A stretch of DNA of 64,000 nt from Ostreococcus lucimarinus. Lineage: Eukaryota. Positions 47 to 39,712 of this stretch are shown here, piece by piece (position 1 is the first letter of the stretch; each line of letters opens with the position of its first letter). The notes beneath the pieces are model-generated. The model was not told where the DNA came from. It was given only the letters and a program-made list of their open reading frames with translations, and did no database searches. Made by a program: the position numbers and the translations under genes. Where the stretch lies: the NCBI GenBank assembly GCA_000092065.1, contig CP000588.1, one strand, 5' to 3'.

Positions 47-3000
47 GTGAGCGGCGCGAGAGATGGGTCGAATGGGGCGACGGCGCCGGTGGAGGCGCCG
101 CCGCTCGCGGCGCCGGGAGCGACGCCCATTTTGAATAGGATTCGCGCCACCGCGGAGATTAGTAGAGGTAGGAAACAGAAGAAGAGGAAGCGAGTGAAGT
201 TGGCGGACGATAAGTTTATGAACACGCGCGAAGGAGCGATTTATCGCGCCGTGATGGAGGCGGGGGTGCGTTTGAACGCGGAGAAGGAGAAGAGCACCGG
301 CGCCATCGCAGACGACGACGAAGCCTTCAGGCTTCGCGAGTCGAGACGATTGGACAAGGACAAGGAATTGATTCCACGAGTCGTCATCGGTGGTGGTCTT
401 GGTACGTCGACGTACTCCGCCGGCTGGGAGTCTCTCGCAGGCATGGAGGAGCACGTCAAGACGCTCAAGGAGTTGACGCTCCTGCCGCTCGCGTACCCGG
501 AGATGTTTGAAAGTCTCGGCGCGGGCGCCGCGCGTGGCGTGCTTTTGCACGGACCTCCAGGAACGGGAAAAACAGCCGCTGTGCGTGCGATGCTCGGCGC
601 CGCGGCGAGAGGACCGAGACCGATTAGCTTTTTTAGCCGGCTCGGCGCGGATTGTTTGGGCAAGTACAGCGGCGAAGCCGAGCGCAAGCTCCGGTTGTTG
701 TTTGAAGAGGCCGAAAAGCGCCAGCCGAGCATCATATTTTTCGACGAAATCGATGGTTTGGCACCCGCGCGTCGAGGTGGTGGCGGCTCGGGCGCGCAGG
801 ATGAGATTCACTCCTCAGTCGTCGCCACTTTGCTCGCGCTCATGGATGGTTTGTCTGGTCGAGGGTCTGTTGTTGTTGTCGCATCGACGAATCGTCCCGA
901 CGCCGTCGATCCCGCTCTGCGCCGACCTGGGAGATTCGATCGCGAGCTATTTTTTGGTCTTCCAGACGCTGAAGCGCGTGCGGACATATTAGCCGTGCAC
1001 ACGCGCGCCTGGACGCCTCGGCCGAGTCGCGAGACGCTCGAAGCAGTCGCGAGCCGCACGGAGGGTTGTGCCGGTGCTGACTTGCGCGCGGTCGCGAACG
1101 CGGCGTTGATGAGTGCGCTCAAGCGTACGTGTCCATCACTTCTTAGCGGAGATCCAACGCGCGATTCTTTGGCGGTCGAGCTCGAAGCGCGACTGCCGCC
1201 GCCAGAGAGCTCGAAGACGGCTTTGGAGGAGGCTCGCGTGGCGCACGAATCAGGACACGCCGGCGCTTTTTTGGCGCTCAAGCAATTCGACGCGCTCGCG
1301 ATGCGAGTCAAAGTATACTGGCCCTTAGAAGACGCTCATCACGAGGCCACGATTGTCGGCTACGACCGGAATACGGTCAGTCACCGATTGCGATACGACG
1401 ACTCAAACTTGTTCAACGGCGAGGACGTTTGGATGCAACTCTTCCGGCCGAACGTCGGTCTCGAAGTGGTACCGAGCGATTTAGAAAAACATCCGGTAAA
1501 AGCAACGGTACGCACGCGGGTCCGCGAGTCGTTGGAGGACGCGAACGACTTACTCGAGAAGTATCGCAACAGTCGTCGAGACGGCGTTTCTGTGTCTTCG
1601 CGAGACTGGACGCACGCTTTATCCACCACGTCTAACGCGTGTTCGGCGAGAAGCGCCGCTGCGGCGCTCGTGCCGCGCGGGAAACCGCTCGAAAGCTTTT
1701 TAGTCCCTATCCTTGGTGGCTCGGTTCGAAAAGTGATGAGCGAATGCTTCAAGCGCGGCGCACCGATGACGCCCAAGTGTCTCTCCGCGGCGAGCGCGTG
1801 CGCCGACGCCGACGTCGCCGACACAGTCGTCGAAGACGCTCTCATCGCCGCTGGTGCGTTTGAACGCGGTTCAGCTTCAATCGAAGACAGAGATATCGTG
1901 CCTTTGACTCATCCGTCGGCATCCGGGGACGATAATTCCGTTCGAAGCGGATGTCGACTCTTGCTCGCGGGCGAAAGCGACTGCGGCCAGCGGGAAATCG
2001 TAGACGTCGTGCTGAACTCTTTGAGCGGAACTTCAACGCACTTGATCAATCTTGCATCGCTGATATCGCATGGAGATGGCGACGCCGTGCGCGGTGTGGC
2101 GGCTGCCTTACTCGAGCCTCTAAGGCAAGCGACGCGAACGAAAACGACGCTCGTGATGCCAGACTTGGACTTGTGGGCGCTAGCGGCTTCCACCGATGGC
2201 TCCGGCGACGTCATCGGCGTCACGACGACCGCGCTTTGGGATCTCGTGCAGAGCACTATTGCAGATTGCTACGCAGCACCCAGCGCGGGCGATGGTGGCC
2301 TGTACGTCGTGTCGTTCGTCAACTTGCCCACAGAGACGCTTCCTGAAGCCGTACTCCACTTTTTCGAGTGCGACGGCGCGGCGATGGATGTCGAACCTCA
2401 GTTCTCCGAAGACCGCGTCAAAGAGTGTGTTGAGCGCGCGGTGTACGAGATCGCCACCGTCGACGTCGCGTCTGCATACGCCGAAGCGCGGCATCACGCA
2501 TACGCGAAGAGGATTGCCTCGCGGCGCGCGCCGAAGACGCCGTCCCCCGCCGTCGTCGCGGACGAGGAAACGGCGAACGAAGCCGCGTGCGAGGCGCTTC
2601 GAATCCGTGTCAGACGCGCACGTGCCATCGTTCGCGCGGCAATCGCAAAGTGTGTCAAAGAGCTTCTGAAAACGCACCGATTCGATCGATTTTTCAACCG
2701 CTCCGAGCAGGCTGGAAAACTCATTCAACTGGCGTTGGATCGTAAAATAGGCAATCCGAATCGGTTCGTGAAAGATCTTCGCGCGTGCGCCAGAGCTTTG
2801 AAGCCTCGACGCGTGACGCACGCCAACATACACAAACCGATCGCGTCGTTGGGATTCAGCGCGGTGGACACCCTCGAAAGTTGGTTCCATCTCGGCGTCG
2901 CCAAGCTCTACGACGAGTACGTCGCGACGGACGCCGAATACGACGAAGCCTTGGCGTCGCTCGCCAAAGTCTCCGGCTTTTCCTCGTCGACGACGCGCGC

Positions 3001-7505: not shown

Positions 7506-7511
7506 AAAAAA
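7506..7511 (-). terminator. Pol III terminator (T6 on the transcribed strand), 12 nt downstream of the tRNA 3' end
   Basis: Plus-strand AAAAAA at 7506..7511 is TTTTTT on the tRNA strand. Confidence 0.6.
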
Positions 7512-7558
7512 TTGGATTCTGAGGGGGATGCCGCGAATCGAACGCGGGGCCTCTCCCA

Positions 7559-7592
7559 AGTTCAAGCAAGCGCTATTCAGCGCTGGGTATTA
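7559..7592 (-). other. tRNA intron 2, 34 nt, at canonical position 37/38
   Basis: Sits between anticodon-loop G37 and T38. Contains an internal hairpin AGCGC-TGAATAG-GCGCT, typical of endonuclease-processed tRNA introns. Confidence 0.6.
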
Positions 7593-7606
7593 CCCGAAGG
7601 GAGAAT

Positions 7607-7697
7607 CTATTGATCAACGAACGAGAGCGTACAGTCAGTACATAGGACTTTTCAAGGTGTGGGTATGCGCGAGGTCACGTCGGCGTGAAAGACTCAC
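7607..7697 (-). other. tRNA intron 1, 91 nt, at non-canonical position 23/24 (D-stem), with GTGAGT...TACTGAC...AG boundaries
   Basis: Read on the minus strand: GTGAGTCTTTCACGCC...TCCTATGTACTGACTGTACGCTCTCGTTCGTTGATCAATAG. The 5' end matches the 5' splice-site consensus, the branch-point-like TACTGAC lies about 28 nt upstream of the 3' AG. Confidence 0.6.
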
Positions 7698-7857
7698 CAT
7701 ACCACTAGACCACATCCCCTTTACTAGGTGTTTAATCGCCAGAGTATGACGAACACTTAGCAGAATGACGATAAACTTGAAGAGGAGCGATCGCGTCGCC
7801 TCGGACACGACGAAGTTACGGGTTTTCGTCATCCACGTTACGTCGCCCCGCACGTAA

Positions 7858-8157
7858 TCAATCGCCGTCGCGCCGATCGAACGTCTCGTCGTCCATCGTC
7901 AGCGCGAGCGCGCACAGCAAGACGACGTTCATGCCCGCGAAGACGTCGAGGTACCAGTACCCCGTGAGCGCGCCCAAGCCGTCGATCGGGCTCGACGAGG
8001 CGAAGAAACCTTCGAGTGGGTTGCTGCCGTCGGGATAGCTCCACGGCGAGGCGCGCGCGACGCGAGGCGCGCGATGCGTCACCGGTGAGGGTCGCGACGG
8101 CGACTGTCGGAGACGGGGCGCGAGCGCGCCCGAAGGCGACGCGAGACGCGCGGACAT
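7858..8157 (-). CDS. Hypothetical small protein with one hydrophobic segment (IDGLGALTGYWYLDVFAGMNVVLLCALALT)
   Basis: A 99-codon ORF beginning 12 nt after the KRI1 stop on the same strand. No family recognised; could be real or fortuitous. Confidence 0.25.
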   Translation of the reverse strand: MSARLASPSGALAPRLRQSPSRPSPVTHRAPRVARASPWSYPDGSNPLEGFFASSSPIDGLGALTGYWYLDVFAGMNVVLLCALALTMDDETFDRRDGD

Positions 8158-13277: not shown

Positions 13278-13568
13278 AAGGATCGATCGCGCGCGCGGGG
13301 GACCGAACGCGCGCGCACACGTCGACGCGCGCGACGCGCGCGCGACGCACGACGCGCGATGGCGGCGCGCGCGGCGCCGGGAGGACGAACGGGCGCGGCG
13401 CGCGCGGCGCGCGCGCGGGCGCGCGGGCGCGCGGCGCGCGCGGCGCGGGCGACGACGGCGCGCGCGACGTCGACGTCAATGGGACGCGCGCGCGCGAGGA
13501 CGCGCGAGGACGCGCGCGGAGGCGCGCGGTGGGACGCGGGCGCGCGGTGGGACGACGCGCGAAGCGCG

Positions 13569-16048: not shown

Positions 16049-16068
16049 GTGCGTCCCGACGCGTGTCG

Positions 16069-38919: not shown

Positions 38920-39114
38920 ATGTTCGCCGCCGCCCGCCCCCGAACGATCGCGCGACCGTCCGTTCGCGCCGCCGCGTCCGCGAGGCGCGCGTCTCGCGCC
39001 GCCGCGCGCGTCCACGCGCGCGCGAACGACGGTGACGTCAACGTGGATCGCCGCGAGTTCGTTCGCAACGCCGCGTTCGCGGCGCTGTCCGCGACGCTCG
39101 TCGCCCCGCGAGAG
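38920..39114 (+). CDS. PSB27: Psb27 (photosystem II repair/assembly lumenal protein) exon 1: transit peptide plus twin-arginine lumenal signal
   Basis: MFAAARPRTIARPS... then DRREFVRNAAFAALSATLVAP (RR motif plus hydrophobic core). Exon ends at a GTGCGC donor. Confidence 0.7.
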
Positions 39115-39367
39115 GTGCGCGCGCGAGCGATGCGCGCGATCGATGACGCGCGAGCGACGCGCGCGCGCGGGAGACGCGAGCGAGGCCGCGCGCGCGGTCG
39201 GGACGGCGGGGACGCCTTATCGGGACGGTTCGGCGTGCGCGACGGCGACGCGCGGCGACGCGGGGACGCGGCGACGCGCGCGCGCGAGGGCAGCGACGAA
39301 TGATTCGACCGCGGATCGCGCGATTCGATGACTGACGACGACGGCACGGGCGCGTGGACGTTCGCAG
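39115..39367 (+). other. Spliceosomal intron in psb27 (253 nt, GT...AG, phase 0)
   Basis: Donor GAG|GTGCGC, branch-like GATGACTGAC, acceptor TTCGCAG|GCG. Splicing joins ...TLVAPRE to ARAGFFGGDKEEKYQ..., giving an AxA (ARA) signal-peptidase site and restoring Psb27 homology. Confidence 0.7.
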
Positions 39368-39712
39368 GCGCGCGCGGGTTTCTTCGGCGGGGATAAGGAG
39401 GAAAAGTACCAGACGGAGACGAAAGCCATCATCGAGCAAGTGAAGCAGACGTTGGAGATGGCGCCCGGTACGGAAGGTCGCGAAGAGTCTATTAACACGA
39501 CGCGCAACATGACCAACGCGTGGGTGGCGAAGTACCGCAGAGATAATAAGACGACGGGCAAGCCGTCGTACGGTCAGGTGTACAGCGCGTTGAACGCGGT
39601 GAGCGGTCACTTCAACAACTTTGGCACCAAGTACCCGTTCCCGGCGAAGAGAAAGGATCGCGTGTTCGCGGAATTCGAGCAGGCTGAGCTCTTGCTTTCG
39701 CGCGGAAGATAA
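39368..39712 (+). CDS. PSB27: Psb27 exon 2 (mature lumenal domain)
   Basis: EEKYQTETKAIIEQVKQTL...NAWVAKYRRDNKTTGKPSYGQVYSALNAVSGHFNNFGTKYPFPAKRKDRVFAEFEQAELLLSRGR is near-collinear with plant Psb27-H1 (NSWVAKYRKEK...IYSALNAVSGHY.SFGP.APIPAKRKARILEE...AEKALSRGR). Confidence 0.85.
   Translation, partial: ARAGFFGGDKEEKYQTETKAIIEQVKQTLEMAPGTEGREESINTTRNMTNAWVAKYRRDNKTTGKPSYGQVYSALNAVSGHFNNFGTKYPFPAKRKDRVFAEFEQAELLLSRGR

What the first reader, a model, noticed from the sequence alone, without database searches (positions are those of the whole stretch)
7607..7697. tRNA intron with spliceosomal-type GTGAGT...TACTGAC...AG signature at position 23/24
The 91-nt intervening sequence in the D-stem starts with the consensus U1-binding 5' splice site GTGAGT and has a near-perfect branch-point TACTGAC about 28 nt before its terminal AG. 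The psb27 intron in this same window has the same layout (GTGCGC...GATGACTGAC...CAG). It is not at the canonical 37/38 site used by the tRNA splicing endonuclease. Either a Pol III transcript is processed by the spliceosome, or this tRNA lies within a Pol II transcript. A BHB-dependent non-canonical endonuclease cut is also possible, and the spliceosomal signals would then be coincidental. Each scenario would be novel.
Basis: partly seen in the sequence, partly recalled or inferred. Interest (0 to 1): 0.85.

Follow-up and report, generated by a model that had tools for sequence, protein, structure and literature searches.

The report
Spliceosome-type intron inside a tRNA gene
In the tiny marine green alga Ostreococcus lucimarinus, the gene for the proline tRNA that reads the commonest proline codon carries a 91-base insert, absent from all five related lineages checked, that looks like an mRNA-type (spliceosomal) intron rather than a tRNA-type one. 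If it is really spliced out, this tRNA would need two unrelated splicing machines.

Summary
On the minus strand, 7719-7523 is a tRNA-Pro(CGG) gene of Ostreococcus lucimarinus in three exons. It has a normal 34-nt intron at 37/38 and a 91-nt insert (7697-7607) that splits the 3' strand of the D-stem at 23/24.

The insert begins GTGAGT. It has ACTGAC, the branch motif of 87% of confirmed O. lucimarinus introns outside chromosome 2, 25 nt before its terminal AG. Only this one of 127,818 91-mers in the window has all three features. It forms no bulge-helix-bulge in either possible register, whereas the 37/38 intron passes the same test.

The insert is identical in all 17 O. lucimarinus-type sequences examined. 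It is missing from the syntenic gene in O. tauri and four other Ostreococcus lineages, so it was gained in one lineage. Exons, A and B boxes, the upstream A/T patch and the T6 terminator are intact. CCG makes up 58% of proline codons.

Best reading (about 0.5): a spliceosomal intron acquired by a Pol III gene and removed by the spliceosome, as in fission-yeast U6. Main rival (about 0.3): a recently disabled gene. No RNA data could be reached, so splicing is inferred, not shown.

The parts
7523..7719 (-). tRNA-Pro(CGG) gene: three exons (22 + 14 + 36 = 72 nt) and two intervening sequences
   Evidence: ARAGORN calls a 72-nt tRNA-Pro(cgg) once the 91 nt are removed. Orthologues in O. tauri and other Ostreococcus are called directly.
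7698..7719 (-). Exon 1: acceptor 5' strand, U8, G9, D-stem 5' strand, D-loop, and positions 22-23. It contains an intact A box (TGGTCTAGTGG).
   Evidence: Sequence read. It is 100% identical to exon 1 of three other Ostreococcus lineages.
7607..7697 (-). 91-nt spliceosomal-type intervening sequence in the D-stem (23/24)
   Evidence: signature unique in the window; no BHB; no stable fold, z = +0.85; absent from orthologues.
7692..7697 (-). 5' splice-site-like GTGAGT
   Evidence: It matches GTRNGT and 5 of 6 positions of the O. lucimarinus consensus GTGCGT.
7634..7640 (-). Branch-site-like TACTGAC (ACTGAC 7639-7634; presumed branch A at 7635)
   Evidence: ACTGAC is present in 87% of EST-confirmed O. 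lucimarinus introns outside chromosome 2.
7609..7633 (-). 25-nt spacer between the branch motif and the AG; 16 of 25 bases are pyrimidines
   Evidence: The published branch-to-AG distance peaks at 20-35 nt.
7607..7608 (-). 3' terminal AG (TAG)
7593..7606 (-). Exon 2: positions 24-37, including anticodon CGG
7559..7592 (-). Canonical 34-nt tRNA intron at 37/38 with a good hBH motif
   Evidence: ARAGORN. The geometric BHB test gives H 4/4 and h 7. The core ACCCAGCGCTGAAnnGCGCT is conserved across species.
7523..7558 (-). Exon 3: positions 38-73, with the B box (GTTCGATTC) and discriminator C
7506..7511 (-). T6 run, 11 nt after the discriminator; a Pol III terminator-like signal
   Evidence: Orthologues also have T5-T7 runs just downstream. 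Neither intervening sequence contains a run of four or more T.
7730..7736 (-). Upstream A/T-rich patch ATTAAAC, at about -11 to -17
   Evidence: Similar patches sit at the same place in orthologues. Their role as an upstream Pol III element is inferred.
7858..8157 (-). Context: p99, a conserved 99-aa protein gene on the same strand. Its stop codon is 139 nt upstream of the tRNA.
   Evidence: GC3 is 0.86. There are 27 homologous representative clusters and orthologues next to the tRNA in O. tauri and two other lineages. No Pfam family matches.

Best explanation
**What it is.** This is the syntenic tRNA-Pro(CGG) gene of Ostreococcus lucimarinus. No second CGG gene of this lineage turned up. After the species split from its relatives, the gene acquired a genuine spliceosomal-type (U2-type GT-AG) intron in the 3' strand of the D-stem. 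It kept its ordinary endonuclease-type intron at 37/38.

**Proposed pathway.**
1. The gene is still transcribed from its internal A and B boxes by RNA polymerase III, up to the T6 terminator.
2. The spliceosome removes the 91-nt intron by branching at the A of ACTGAC and joining G23 to A24, as it does for the Pol III-made U6 precursor of fission yeast.
3. The tRNA splicing endonuclease and ligase remove the 37/38 intron.
4. RNase P and RNase Z trim the ends.

A variant of step 1 is that read-through Pol II transcripts from the upstream p99 gene supply the precursor that gets spliced.

**Shown versus inferred.**
- Shown: gene structure, splice signals, absence of BHB, lineage-specific presence, fixation in the population, and intact exons and Pol III signals.
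- Inferred: transcription, actual splicing, the machinery that does it, and the origin.
For: 1. **Exact boundaries.** The boundaries fixed independently by the cloverleaf coincide with GTGAGT...ACTGAC-25 nt-AG. One of 127,818 91-mers in the window has this, and the product of marginals is 2e-7.
2. **Species profile.** The signals match the species' own intron profile and the psb27 intron in the same window.
3. **No BHB.** In both registers H is 2/4, h is 0 and h' is 0, while the 37/38 intron scores 4/4 and 7. Relaxed offsets give only a chance-level 4-bp helix.
4. **Unstructured intron.** The intron alone folds no better than shuffled sequence (z = +0.85). In the predicted folds the branch motif and the stretch before the AG are mostly unpaired.
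5. **Gain in one lineage.** The syntenic orthologue lacks the insert in:
   - O. tauri, whose acceptor stem carries a compensatory A5:U68 to G5:C68 change, so the orthologue is under selection;
   - four other lineages.
6. **Fixed in the population.** All 17 O. lucimarinus-type sequences (the window plus 16 metagenome contigs) carry it without a single difference in the 197-nt gene. No intron-less O. lucimarinus-type allele exists in JGI metagenome contigs.
7. **Intact gene.**
   - The exons are 100% identical to those of the cluster 1 lineage, although flanks and the 37/38 intron have diverged.
   - The A box, B box, upstream A/T patch and T6 terminator are intact, and there is no T4 run inside either intron.
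8. **Long introns tolerated.** Relatives carry 68-70-nt introns in other Pro tRNA genes, so long A-to-B spacing is tolerated in this group.
9. **Codon demand.** CCG is 58% of proline codons in ten ORFs of the window, so losing the cognate tRNA should cost something.
10. **Precedent.** S. pombe U6, a Pol III transcript, has an intron removed by the spliceosome and thought to come from reverse splicing. Spliceosomal introns are also reported in U1, U2 and U5 snRNA genes and in rRNA genes.
Against: - No RNA evidence of any kind could be reached, neither a mature tRNA nor a lariat.
- From general knowledge (Sisodia et al. 1987, recalled, not checked here), Pol III transcripts are usually poor substrates for the spliceosome in vivo.
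- The 5' exon would be only about 22 nt plus a short uncapped leader.
- The predicted minimum-energy fold buries the 5' splice site in a 13-bp imperfect helix with intron positions 46-60.
- GTGAGT differs at +4 from the dominant GTGCGTG, and TAG differs from the preferred CGCAG.
- tRNA-Pro(UGG) can read CCG in organisms that lack a CGG tRNA (general knowledge), so the gene could be dispensable.
- Population variation is too low to show selection on the intron: 0 SNPs in 91 nt against about 1.7 expected from the flanks, which is not significant.
- If the intron arrived by reverse splicing, exact GT...AG boundaries would follow from the mechanism whether or not the gene still works.
Confidence: 0.5

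Rival explanations
1. Recently disabled gene. A spliceosomal-type intron, or a fragment carrying one, landed in the tRNA-Pro(CGG) gene of the O. lucimarinus lineage. Pol III transcripts are not spliced, the tRNA is no longer made, and CCG is read by tRNA-Pro(UGG). The exons look perfect only because the event is young.
For: - No expression data exist here.
- The gene is invisible to standard tRNA finders.
- Published counts give O. lucimarinus 44 tRNA genes against 47 in O. tauri.
- CNN-anticodon tRNAs are argued to be dispensable in O. tauri.
- The 17 sequences are invariant, so the insertion could be recent.
- The 5' splice site is predicted to be base-paired.
- A reverse-splicing origin explains the exact boundaries without any need for function.
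Against: - The insert is fixed in contigs drawn from many separate metagenome samples, and no intron-less allele was found.
- There is no substitution in 72 nt of exon, and the A box, B box and T6 terminator are intact.
- The tRNA is cognate to 58% of proline codons.
- O. tauri and two other lineages keep an intact gene at this locus, and the cluster 3 lineage keeps a circularly permuted version of it, one with a compensatory stem change. This points to a gene under purifying selection in the genus.
Confidence: 0.3
2. The intron belongs functionally to a Pol II transcript. The p99 mRNA runs through the tRNA gene, and the 91 nt are a 3'-UTR intron of that mRNA. The tRNA is either released from the spliced Pol II transcript by RNase P and RNase Z, or is collateral damage.
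For: - p99 is a real conserved gene 139 nt upstream on the same strand.
- The p99-then-tRNA order and orientation are kept in O. tauri and two other lineages, even where the pair is inverted relative to its neighbours.
- There is no TGTAA between the p99 stop codon and the tRNA in O. lucimarinus. The first one on that strand is at 7459-7455, 64 nt after the tRNA.
- TGTAA is about 7-fold enriched just after stop codons in this window.
Against: - Only 35% of likely genes use TGTAA, normally within 80 nt of the stop. One at 400 nt is within chance expectation.
- In the cluster 3 lineage, TGTAA lies 66-78 nt after the p99 stop, before the tRNA. O. tauri has none at all, and the cluster 1 lineage has the tRNA without p99.
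- All species keep a T-run terminator and A and B boxes, which is typical of an independent Pol III gene.
Confidence: 0.12
3. Non-canonical tRNA intron cut by the tRNA splicing endonuclease through a relaxed bulge-helix-bulge, as in red algae, nucleomorphs and archaea. The spliceosomal signals would be coincidence.
For: - Ostreococcus processes permuted tRNAs through BHB motifs.
- One O. lucimarinus tRNA, Ser(TGA), is reported with a 56-bp intron at 27/28.
- D-loop introns exist in Chondrus crispus and Cyanidioschyzon merolae.
Against: - In both possible registers the central helix has 2 of 4 pairs and both flanking helices have 0. The 37/38 intron of the same gene passes.
- Relaxed offsets give only an isolated 4-bp helix expected by chance.
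- The intron is unstructured.
- The coincidence of splice signals has a probability of about 2e-7.
- Green-algal BHB junctions are reported at 37/38 with hBH motifs, the kind recognised by the eukaryal enzyme.
Confidence: 0.04
4. Transposon or introner-type insertion, or an assembly artefact.
For: Introner elements are known in the related genus Micromonas (the paper is listed; details are from memory).
Against: - There is no second copy in the 64-kb window.
- There is none in 0.9 Mb of fetched Mamiellales DNA beyond the 15 orthologous copies then held.
- Reading the two ends of the insert shows no terminal inverted repeats and no target-site duplication.
- The same sequence occurs in 16 independent assemblies.
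Confidence: 0.03

Closest known systems
Spliceosomal (mRNA-type) intron in the Pol III-transcribed U6 snRNA gene of Schizosaccharomyces pombe. Related cases are reported in U1, U2 and U5 snRNA genes of Rhodotorula and in rRNA genes (Tani & Ohshima 1989, 1991; reviewed in PMC5855946).
   Same: - A GT-AG, branch-site-bearing intron sits in a small structured non-coding RNA gene that has an internal Pol III promoter.
- It is a species-specific insertion in a highly conserved region.
- The proposed origin is reverse splicing followed by reverse transcription.
   Different: - The host is a tRNA, which is not a spliceosome component, so proximity to the catalytic centre cannot explain the insertion.
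- The gene also has an endonuclease-type intron, so two splicing systems would act on one precursor.
- Splicing is demonstrated for S. pombe U6 and not here.
Ordinary spliceosomal introns of O. lucimarinus outside chromosome 2 (Irimia & Roy 2008, PMC2483917), for example the psb27 intron at 39116-39368
   Same: - ACTGAC branch motif.
- A branch-to-AG distance of 25 nt, within the 20-35 range.
- A length of 91 nt against a median of 111.
- GT...AG ends and a pyrimidine-rich 3' part.
   Different: - The 5' site is GTGAGT rather than GTGCGTG.
- The branch context is TACTGACT rather than GACTGACG.
- The 3' end is ATAG rather than CGCAG.
- The host is a tRNA gene with Pol III signals, not a protein gene.
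Non-canonical BHB tRNA introns and disrupted tRNA genes of algae and archaea. Examples are C. merolae, Chondrus crispus D-loop 20/21 introns, Guillardia nucleomorph, Crenarchaeota, and permuted tRNAs of Ostreococcus and Micromonas.
   Same: - An extra intron outside 37/38, in the D-arm, together with a canonical intron in the same gene.
- Standard tRNA finders miss it.
- It occurs in an alga already known for unusual tRNA gene structures.
   Different: - There is no bulge-helix-bulge at the junctions.
- It is longer than the reported C. merolae introns (11-69 bp).
- It carries full spliceosomal signals.
- It is present in one species only.

Membership tests
U2-type spliceosomal intron (O. lucimarinus profile outside chromosome 2) | GT at the 5' end with an extended 5' splice-site consensus (GTGCGTG; GTRNGT on chromosome 2) | tested here: met
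   GTGAGT at 7697-7692 matches 5 of 6 positions of GTGCGT and fits GTRNGT.
U2-type spliceosomal intron (O. lucimarinus profile outside chromosome 2) | ACTGAC branch motif, 20-35 nt upstream of the 3' AG | tested here: met
   ACTGAC lies at 7639-7634, with 25 nt to the AG at 7608-7607.
U2-type spliceosomal intron (O. lucimarinus profile outside chromosome 2) | Terminal YAG, and removal restores an uninterrupted functional sequence | tested here: met
   The intron ends in TAG. Removing it gives a 72-nt tRNA-Pro(CGG) whose exons match those of the intron-less cluster 1 orthologue.
U2-type spliceosomal intron (O. lucimarinus profile outside chromosome 2) | Excised by the spliceosome as a lariat | not testable with these tools
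   No RNA data were reachable. This needs RNA-seq branch reads, RT-PCR or inhibitor experiments.
U2-type spliceosomal intron (O. lucimarinus profile outside chromosome 2) | Resides in a Pol II transcript | tested here: inconclusive
   The host has Pol III signals (A and B boxes, T6). The p99 gene lies 139 nt upstream on the same strand, but the poly(A)-signal evidence is weak and inconsistent.
BHB-type tRNA intron (tRNA splicing endonuclease substrate) | Two 3-nt bulges separated by a 4-bp helix at the two junctions (strict hBHBh' or relaxed hBH/HBh') | tested here: not met
   H is 2/4, h is 0 and h' is 0 in both registers. The control 37/38 intron gives H 4/4 and h 7. Relaxed offsets yield only an isolated 4-bp helix.
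BHB-type tRNA intron (tRNA splicing endonuclease substrate) | Position 37/38, which the eukaryal enzyme measures from the mature domain | tested here: not met
   The insert lies at 23/24 in the D-stem.
Spliceosomal intron in a Pol III non-coding RNA gene (S. pombe U6 type) | Host gene carries Pol III promoter and terminator elements | tested here: met
   The A box TGGTCTAGTGG lies in exon 1, the B box GTTCGATTC in exon 3, and T6 at 7511-7506. There is no T4 run in either intron. Actual Pol III transcription was not tested.
Spliceosomal intron in a Pol III non-coding RNA gene (S. pombe U6 type) | Species-specific insertion relative to orthologous genes | tested here: met
   The insert is absent from O. 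tauri and four other Ostreococcus lineages at the syntenic locus and present in 17 of 17 O. lucimarinus-type sequences.
Spliceosomal intron in a Pol III non-coding RNA gene (S. pombe U6 type) | Mature RNA lacking the intron is produced | not testable with these tools
   No transcript data. The JGI contig scan for an O. lucimarinus-type intron-less junction found nothing, which is uninformative about RNA.
Introner or transposon-derived intron | Many similar copies in the genome; terminal repeats or target-site duplication | tested here: not met
   There is no second copy in the window or in 0.9 Mb of related loci. Reading the ends of the insert shows no terminal inverted repeats or target-site duplication. 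The whole genome was not searchable.
tRNA pseudogene | Decayed exons or lost promoter and terminator | tested here: not met
   The exons are identical to functional orthologues, and the boxes and T6 are intact. This does not exclude a very recent inactivation.

The most novel reading that the evidence does not exclude
A nuclear tRNA whose maturation requires the spliceosome. A Pol III-type tRNA-Pro(CGG) precursor in O. lucimarinus would be spliced twice, once by the spliceosome at D-stem 23/24 and once by the tRNA endonuclease and ligase at 37/38. It would be a young, datable case of a spliceosomal intron gained by a tRNA, probably through reverse splicing. The reported 'no H' intron at 27/28 of the O. 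lucimarinus tRNA-Ser(TGA) gene may be a second case.
Probability: 0.45. Interest if true: 0.9.

Novelty: new variant of a known kind. Interest (0 to 1): 0.72.

Why it matters
Nuclear introns are normally treated as three unrelated classes (spliceosomal, tRNA-type and XBP1-type), each tied to its own kind of transcript.

- **If the tRNA is functional,** it crosses that boundary. It would extend the short list of non-mRNA genes with spliceosomal introns (U6, other snRNAs, rRNA) to tRNAs. It would also show that the spliceosome can act on a tRNA precursor in vivo.
- **As an intron gain,** it is unusually clean and recent. The intron-less ancestral state is preserved at the same locus in five related lineages, which bears on the reverse-splicing model of intron origin.
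- **For annotation,** tRNA finders miss the gene. O. lucimarinus may therefore be wrongly scored as lacking the tRNA for its most-used proline codon, which affects codon-usage and tRNA-repertoire analyses of Mamiellophyceae.
- **If the gene is dead,** it is still a rare documented case of a spliceosomal-type intron inserted into a tRNA gene.

Tried and rejected
- **Standard tRNA and RNA-family detection.** ARAGORN in default mode and Rfam at both gathering and E-value thresholds found nothing. ARAGORN with introns allowed mis-called the gene as tRNA-Arg with a 105-nt intron. It also gave GC-rich false positives at 13287-13425 and in L015.
- **Bulge-helix-bulge.** The strict geometric test, a scan of all cut-site pairs and a relaxed-offset test found no motif that yields a tRNA.
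- **Repeat or introner origin.** There are no other copies in the window or in 0.9 Mb of fetched loci.
- **Intron-less O. lucimarinus allele or spliced precursor.** An exact scan of JGI metagenome contigs for the O. lucimarinus-specific exon 1-exon 2-intron 2 junction gave zero hits.
- **A diverged intron copy to test conservation of the splice signals.** All 16 further copies are identical, including L114, which was chosen through a divergent p99 variant. No test was possible.
- **Poly(A) signal analysis, to place the tRNA inside the p99 mRNA.** The result was suggestive in O. lucimarinus but inconsistent across species.
- **Literature.** Seven full-text searches found no report of a spliceosomal intron in a tRNA gene, or of a D-arm intron in Ostreococcus. 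Maruyama et al. 2010 and Palenik et al. 2007 are not held. The supplement of Michely et al. 2013 is not held either.
- **A protein-space search for ORFs across the spliced junction.** This was considered and dropped. Such ORFs would be 77 codons or fewer, and gene callers do not call ORFs there even on genomic contigs.
Full report
**Source of the window.** Four long ORFs of the window match database proteins exactly. Two of the four clusters carry NCBI entries named Ostreococcus lucimarinus CCE9901, on a 701,771-bp record. One of these, XP_001419414.1, is an exact match. GC content is 63.7%. The O. tauri orthologous region lies on CAID01000008.2. I therefore infer that this is not the atypical chromosome 2.

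The feature is on the minus strand. Reading 7719 to 7523 gives:
- 22 nt of tRNA 5' sequence, GGGGATGTGGTCTAGTGGTATG;
- 91 nt that begin GTGAGT and end CAATAG (7697-7607);
- 14 nt carrying the anticodon loop, ATTCTCCCTTCGGG;
- a 34-nt intron at 37/38 (7592-7559);
- 36 nt of tRNA 3' sequence.

ARAGORN in default mode and Rfam see nothing here. With the 91 nt deleted in silico, ARAGORN returns a clean 72-nt tRNA-Pro(CGG) with a canonical 37/38 intron. In standard numbering the insert lies between G23 and A24, in the 3' strand of the D-stem. A shared G allows a 1-nt slide. The psb27 intron used for comparison is also as described: 39116-39368, GTGCGC...ACTGAC, 31 nt, CAG.

**More than chance.** The tRNA fold fixes the boundaries independently of any splice signal. 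Among all 127,818 91-mers on both strands of the window, only this one starts GTRNGT, ends AG and has ACTGAC 15-40 nt before the AG. The product of the three marginal frequencies is 2e-7.

The signals also match the species' own profile. Irimia and Roy (PMC2483917) report the following for EST-confirmed O. lucimarinus introns outside chromosome 2:
- 87% contain ACTGAC;
- the branch-to-AG distance peaks at 20-35 nt;
- the 5' consensus is GTGCGTG (GTRNGT on chromosome 2);
- the median length of all predicted introns in the genome is 111 nt.

Here ACTGAC lies 25 nt from the AG, the length is 91 nt and the 5' end is GTGAGT. The deviations are A instead of C at +4, TACTGACT instead of GACTGACG, and ATAG instead of CGCAG.

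**Not a bulge-helix-bulge intron.** I wrote out the BHB geometry: a 4-bp helix H, two 3-nt bulges each cut after the second base, and flanking helices h and h'. I checked it first on the 37/38 intron of the same gene, which passes (H 4/4, h 7).

The 91-nt insert fails in both possible registers, with H 2/4, h 0 and h' 0. Allowing the helix ends to shift by up to 2 nt and H to be 3-5 bp gives only an isolated TGGT/ATCA helix with no flanking helices. That is what chance gives over 75 combinations. No other BHB-like geometry in the precursor would produce a tRNA.

The insert alone folds no better than shuffled sequence (-13.8 kcal/mol, z = +0.85). In the predicted fold, most of its 3' two-thirds, which holds the branch motif and the pyrimidine-rich stretch, is unpaired.

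One feature counts against easy splicing. The minimum-energy fold of the whole precursor pairs exon 1 and the 5' splice site (GTGGTATG|GTGAG) with intron positions 46-60.

**A gain in one lineage.** I used the squalene epoxidase gene 3 kb away to fetch syntenic loci. I then scanned JGI metagenome contigs for the exon 1 22-mer.

| Lineage | Loci | State of tRNA-Pro(CGG) at the syntenic locus |
|---|---|---|
| O. tauri (GCA_000214015.2) | L107 | Only the 37/38 intron; compensatory A5:U68 to G5:C68 change in the acceptor stem |
| Uncultured lineage, cluster 1 | L001-L004, L017 type | Only the 37/38 intron |
| Uncultured lineage, cluster 2 | L108-L110, L038/L014/L060 types | Only the 37/38 intron |
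| Uncultured lineage, cluster 3 | L111-L113, L053 type; L072 and L088 variants | Circularly permuted at 37/38; no D-arm insert |

Exon 1 and exon 2 are contiguous in all of these. This gives at least five lineages without the insert against one with it, so a single gain is the parsimonious reading.

Within the O. lucimarinus type, the window and 16 metagenome contigs from different samples all carry the insert. There is no difference anywhere in the 197-nt gene. The flanks show five SNPs and an indel. A scan for an O. lucimarinus-type allele without the insert found nothing. The variation is too low to test selection on the splice signals.

**State of the gene.**
- The three exons are identical to those of the cluster 1 lineage, and exons 1 and 2 also to those of cluster 2. 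The flanks and most of the 37/38 intron have diverged.
- The A box lies wholly in exon 1 and the B box in exon 3.
- An A/T-rich patch sits about 11-17 nt upstream, as in the orthologues.
- A T6 run follows 11 nt after the discriminator.
- Neither intervening sequence has four consecutive T.
- Relatives carry 68-70-nt introns in tRNA-Pro(UGG) and tRNA-Pro(AGG) genes, so long box spacing is normal in this group.
- CCG accounts for 58% of proline codons in ten ORFs of the window.

Nothing in the sequence marks the gene as decayed. A very recent inactivation would look the same.

**Pol II context.** The 99-codon ORF at 8157-7858 on the same strand is a real gene. Its GC3 is 0.86. It has 27 homologous representative clusters. 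Orthologues lie immediately upstream of the tRNA in O. tauri and in clusters 2 and 3, even where the pair is inverted relative to its neighbours. It matches no Pfam family.

TGTAA is enriched just after stop codons (7 of 20 likely genes against 5% of random windows), so it is probably a poly(A) signal. In O. lucimarinus the first TGTAA after the p99 stop on that strand lies beyond the tRNA, at 7459-7455. The pattern does not hold across species, however:
- cluster 3 has TGTAA before the tRNA;
- O. tauri has none;
- cluster 1 has the tRNA without p99.

Co-transcription remains possible but unsupported.

**Most likely mechanism.** The best-supported account is that a spliceosomal intron entered this tRNA gene in the O. 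lucimarinus lineage. The likely route is reverse splicing into a precursor followed by reverse transcription and recombination. This is inferred by analogy with the model for S. pombe U6.

Under this account the intron is removed by the spliceosome from the tRNA precursor, and the 37/38 intron is removed by the usual endonuclease and ligase. I put this at about 0.5. The sequence-level steps are shown. Transcription, splicing and the machinery are inferred.

The rivals are:
- a freshly disabled gene, about 0.3;
- a 3'-UTR intron of the p99 mRNA, with the tRNA either released from that transcript or sacrificed, about 0.12;
- endonuclease cleavage of a relaxed BHB, about 0.04;
- a transposon or an artefact, about 0.03.

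**Comparison with what is known.** It works like the mRNA-type intron of the fission-yeast U6 gene. That is a Pol III gene with a species-specific spliceosomal intron, shown to be spliced. Similar introns are reported in other snRNA genes and in rRNA genes (PMC5855946).

It is not a member of the algal and archaeal class of non-canonical BHB tRNA introns, because the defining motif was tested and not met.

Reviews of disrupted tRNA genes list only canonical introns and permuted genes for Ostreococcus. The one exception is a 56-bp intron at 27/28 in the permuted tRNA-Ser(TGA) of O. lucimarinus, annotated as lacking the central BHB helix (PMC3978253; PMC13578239). That intron deserves the same test but could not be fetched.

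Seven full-text searches found no report of a spliceosomal intron in a tRNA gene. Two key papers are not held, so prior mention cannot be excluded.

**Verdict.** The spliceosomal reading of the sequence is well supported, and the BHB alternative is rejected computationally. Function is unproven.

I rate it a new variant of a known kind: a spliceosomal intron in a non-mRNA, Pol III-type gene, now in a tRNA. Interest is 0.72. The experiment that decides it is simple: look for mature tRNA-Pro(CGG) and for lariat or junction reads in O. lucimarinus RNA.

Noticed in passing
L111 2792-2914 (+), L112 2812-2927; also L053, L062, L073, L081, and variants L072 and L088: At the same syntenic locus, an uncultured Ostreococcus-like lineage has a circularly permuted tRNA-Pro(CGG): 3' half, about 13-nt linker, 5' half, with the junction at 37/38. 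O. tauri, O. lucimarinus and two other lineages have the colinear gene there, with a 37/38 intron. Pro(CGG) is not among the permuted tRNAs listed for green algae in Soma 2014. This is an orthologous colinear/permuted pair.
   Followed up: partly
window 7559-7592 (-) and orthologues (alignments A1, A2): The canonical 37/38 intron keeps a conserved core, ACCCAGCGCTGAAnnGCGCT (a 6-bp hairpin), across all Ostreococcus lineages. The rest of the intron and the gene flanks diverge.
   Followed up: no
window 7858-8157 (-): p99 is a conserved small protein: a transit-peptide-like N-terminus, then PDGSNPLEGFFAS..PIDGLGALTGYWY.DVFA.MNVVLL. It has no Pfam match and 27 homologous clusters. It always lies just upstream of tRNA-Pro(CGG) on the same strand, except in one lineage that lacks it.
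   Followed up: partly
O. lucimarinus genome, outside this window (Soma 2014 Table 1, PMC3978253): The permuted tRNA-Ser(TGA) of O. lucimarinus is reported with a 56-bp intron at 27/28 whose BHB lacks the central helix ('no H'). This may be a second spliceosomal-type tRNA intron. The sequence could not be obtained.
   Followed up: no
window, whole (for example 3292, 30423, 44832 on +; 8176, 12444, 21908, 34945, 42160, 57344 on -): TGTAA occurs within 80 nt after, or overlapping, the stop codon of 7 of 20 likely genes, against 5% of random 210-nt windows. It is probably the poly(A) signal, as in other green algae.
   Followed up: partly
window 38921-39712 (+): psb27 has one intron, 39116-39368 (GTGCGC...GATGACTGACG, 31 nt, CAG). 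Other intron-like GTGCGT...GACTGAC...AG candidates start at 16049 (+), 30543 (+) and 1515 (-).
   Followed up: partly
L107 2689-2801 (-), O. tauri CAID01000008.2: O. tauri tRNA-Pro(CGG) differs from the other lineages by a compensatory acceptor-stem change (A5:U68 to G5:C68). This is direct evidence that the orthologue is under structural selection.
   Followed up: yes
L111 about 2935-2985 (+); same in L053: Three tandem copies of GATGTAATTTGGC, each containing TGTAA, follow the T6 terminator of the permuted tRNA gene.
   Followed up: no
window 13287-13425 (-); L015 1189-1523: With long introns allowed, ARAGORN calls spurious 'tRNA-Ala' genes in very GC-rich coding DNA. It also mis-assigns the real gene as tRNA-Arg(tcg) with a 105-nt intron.
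   Followed up: yes
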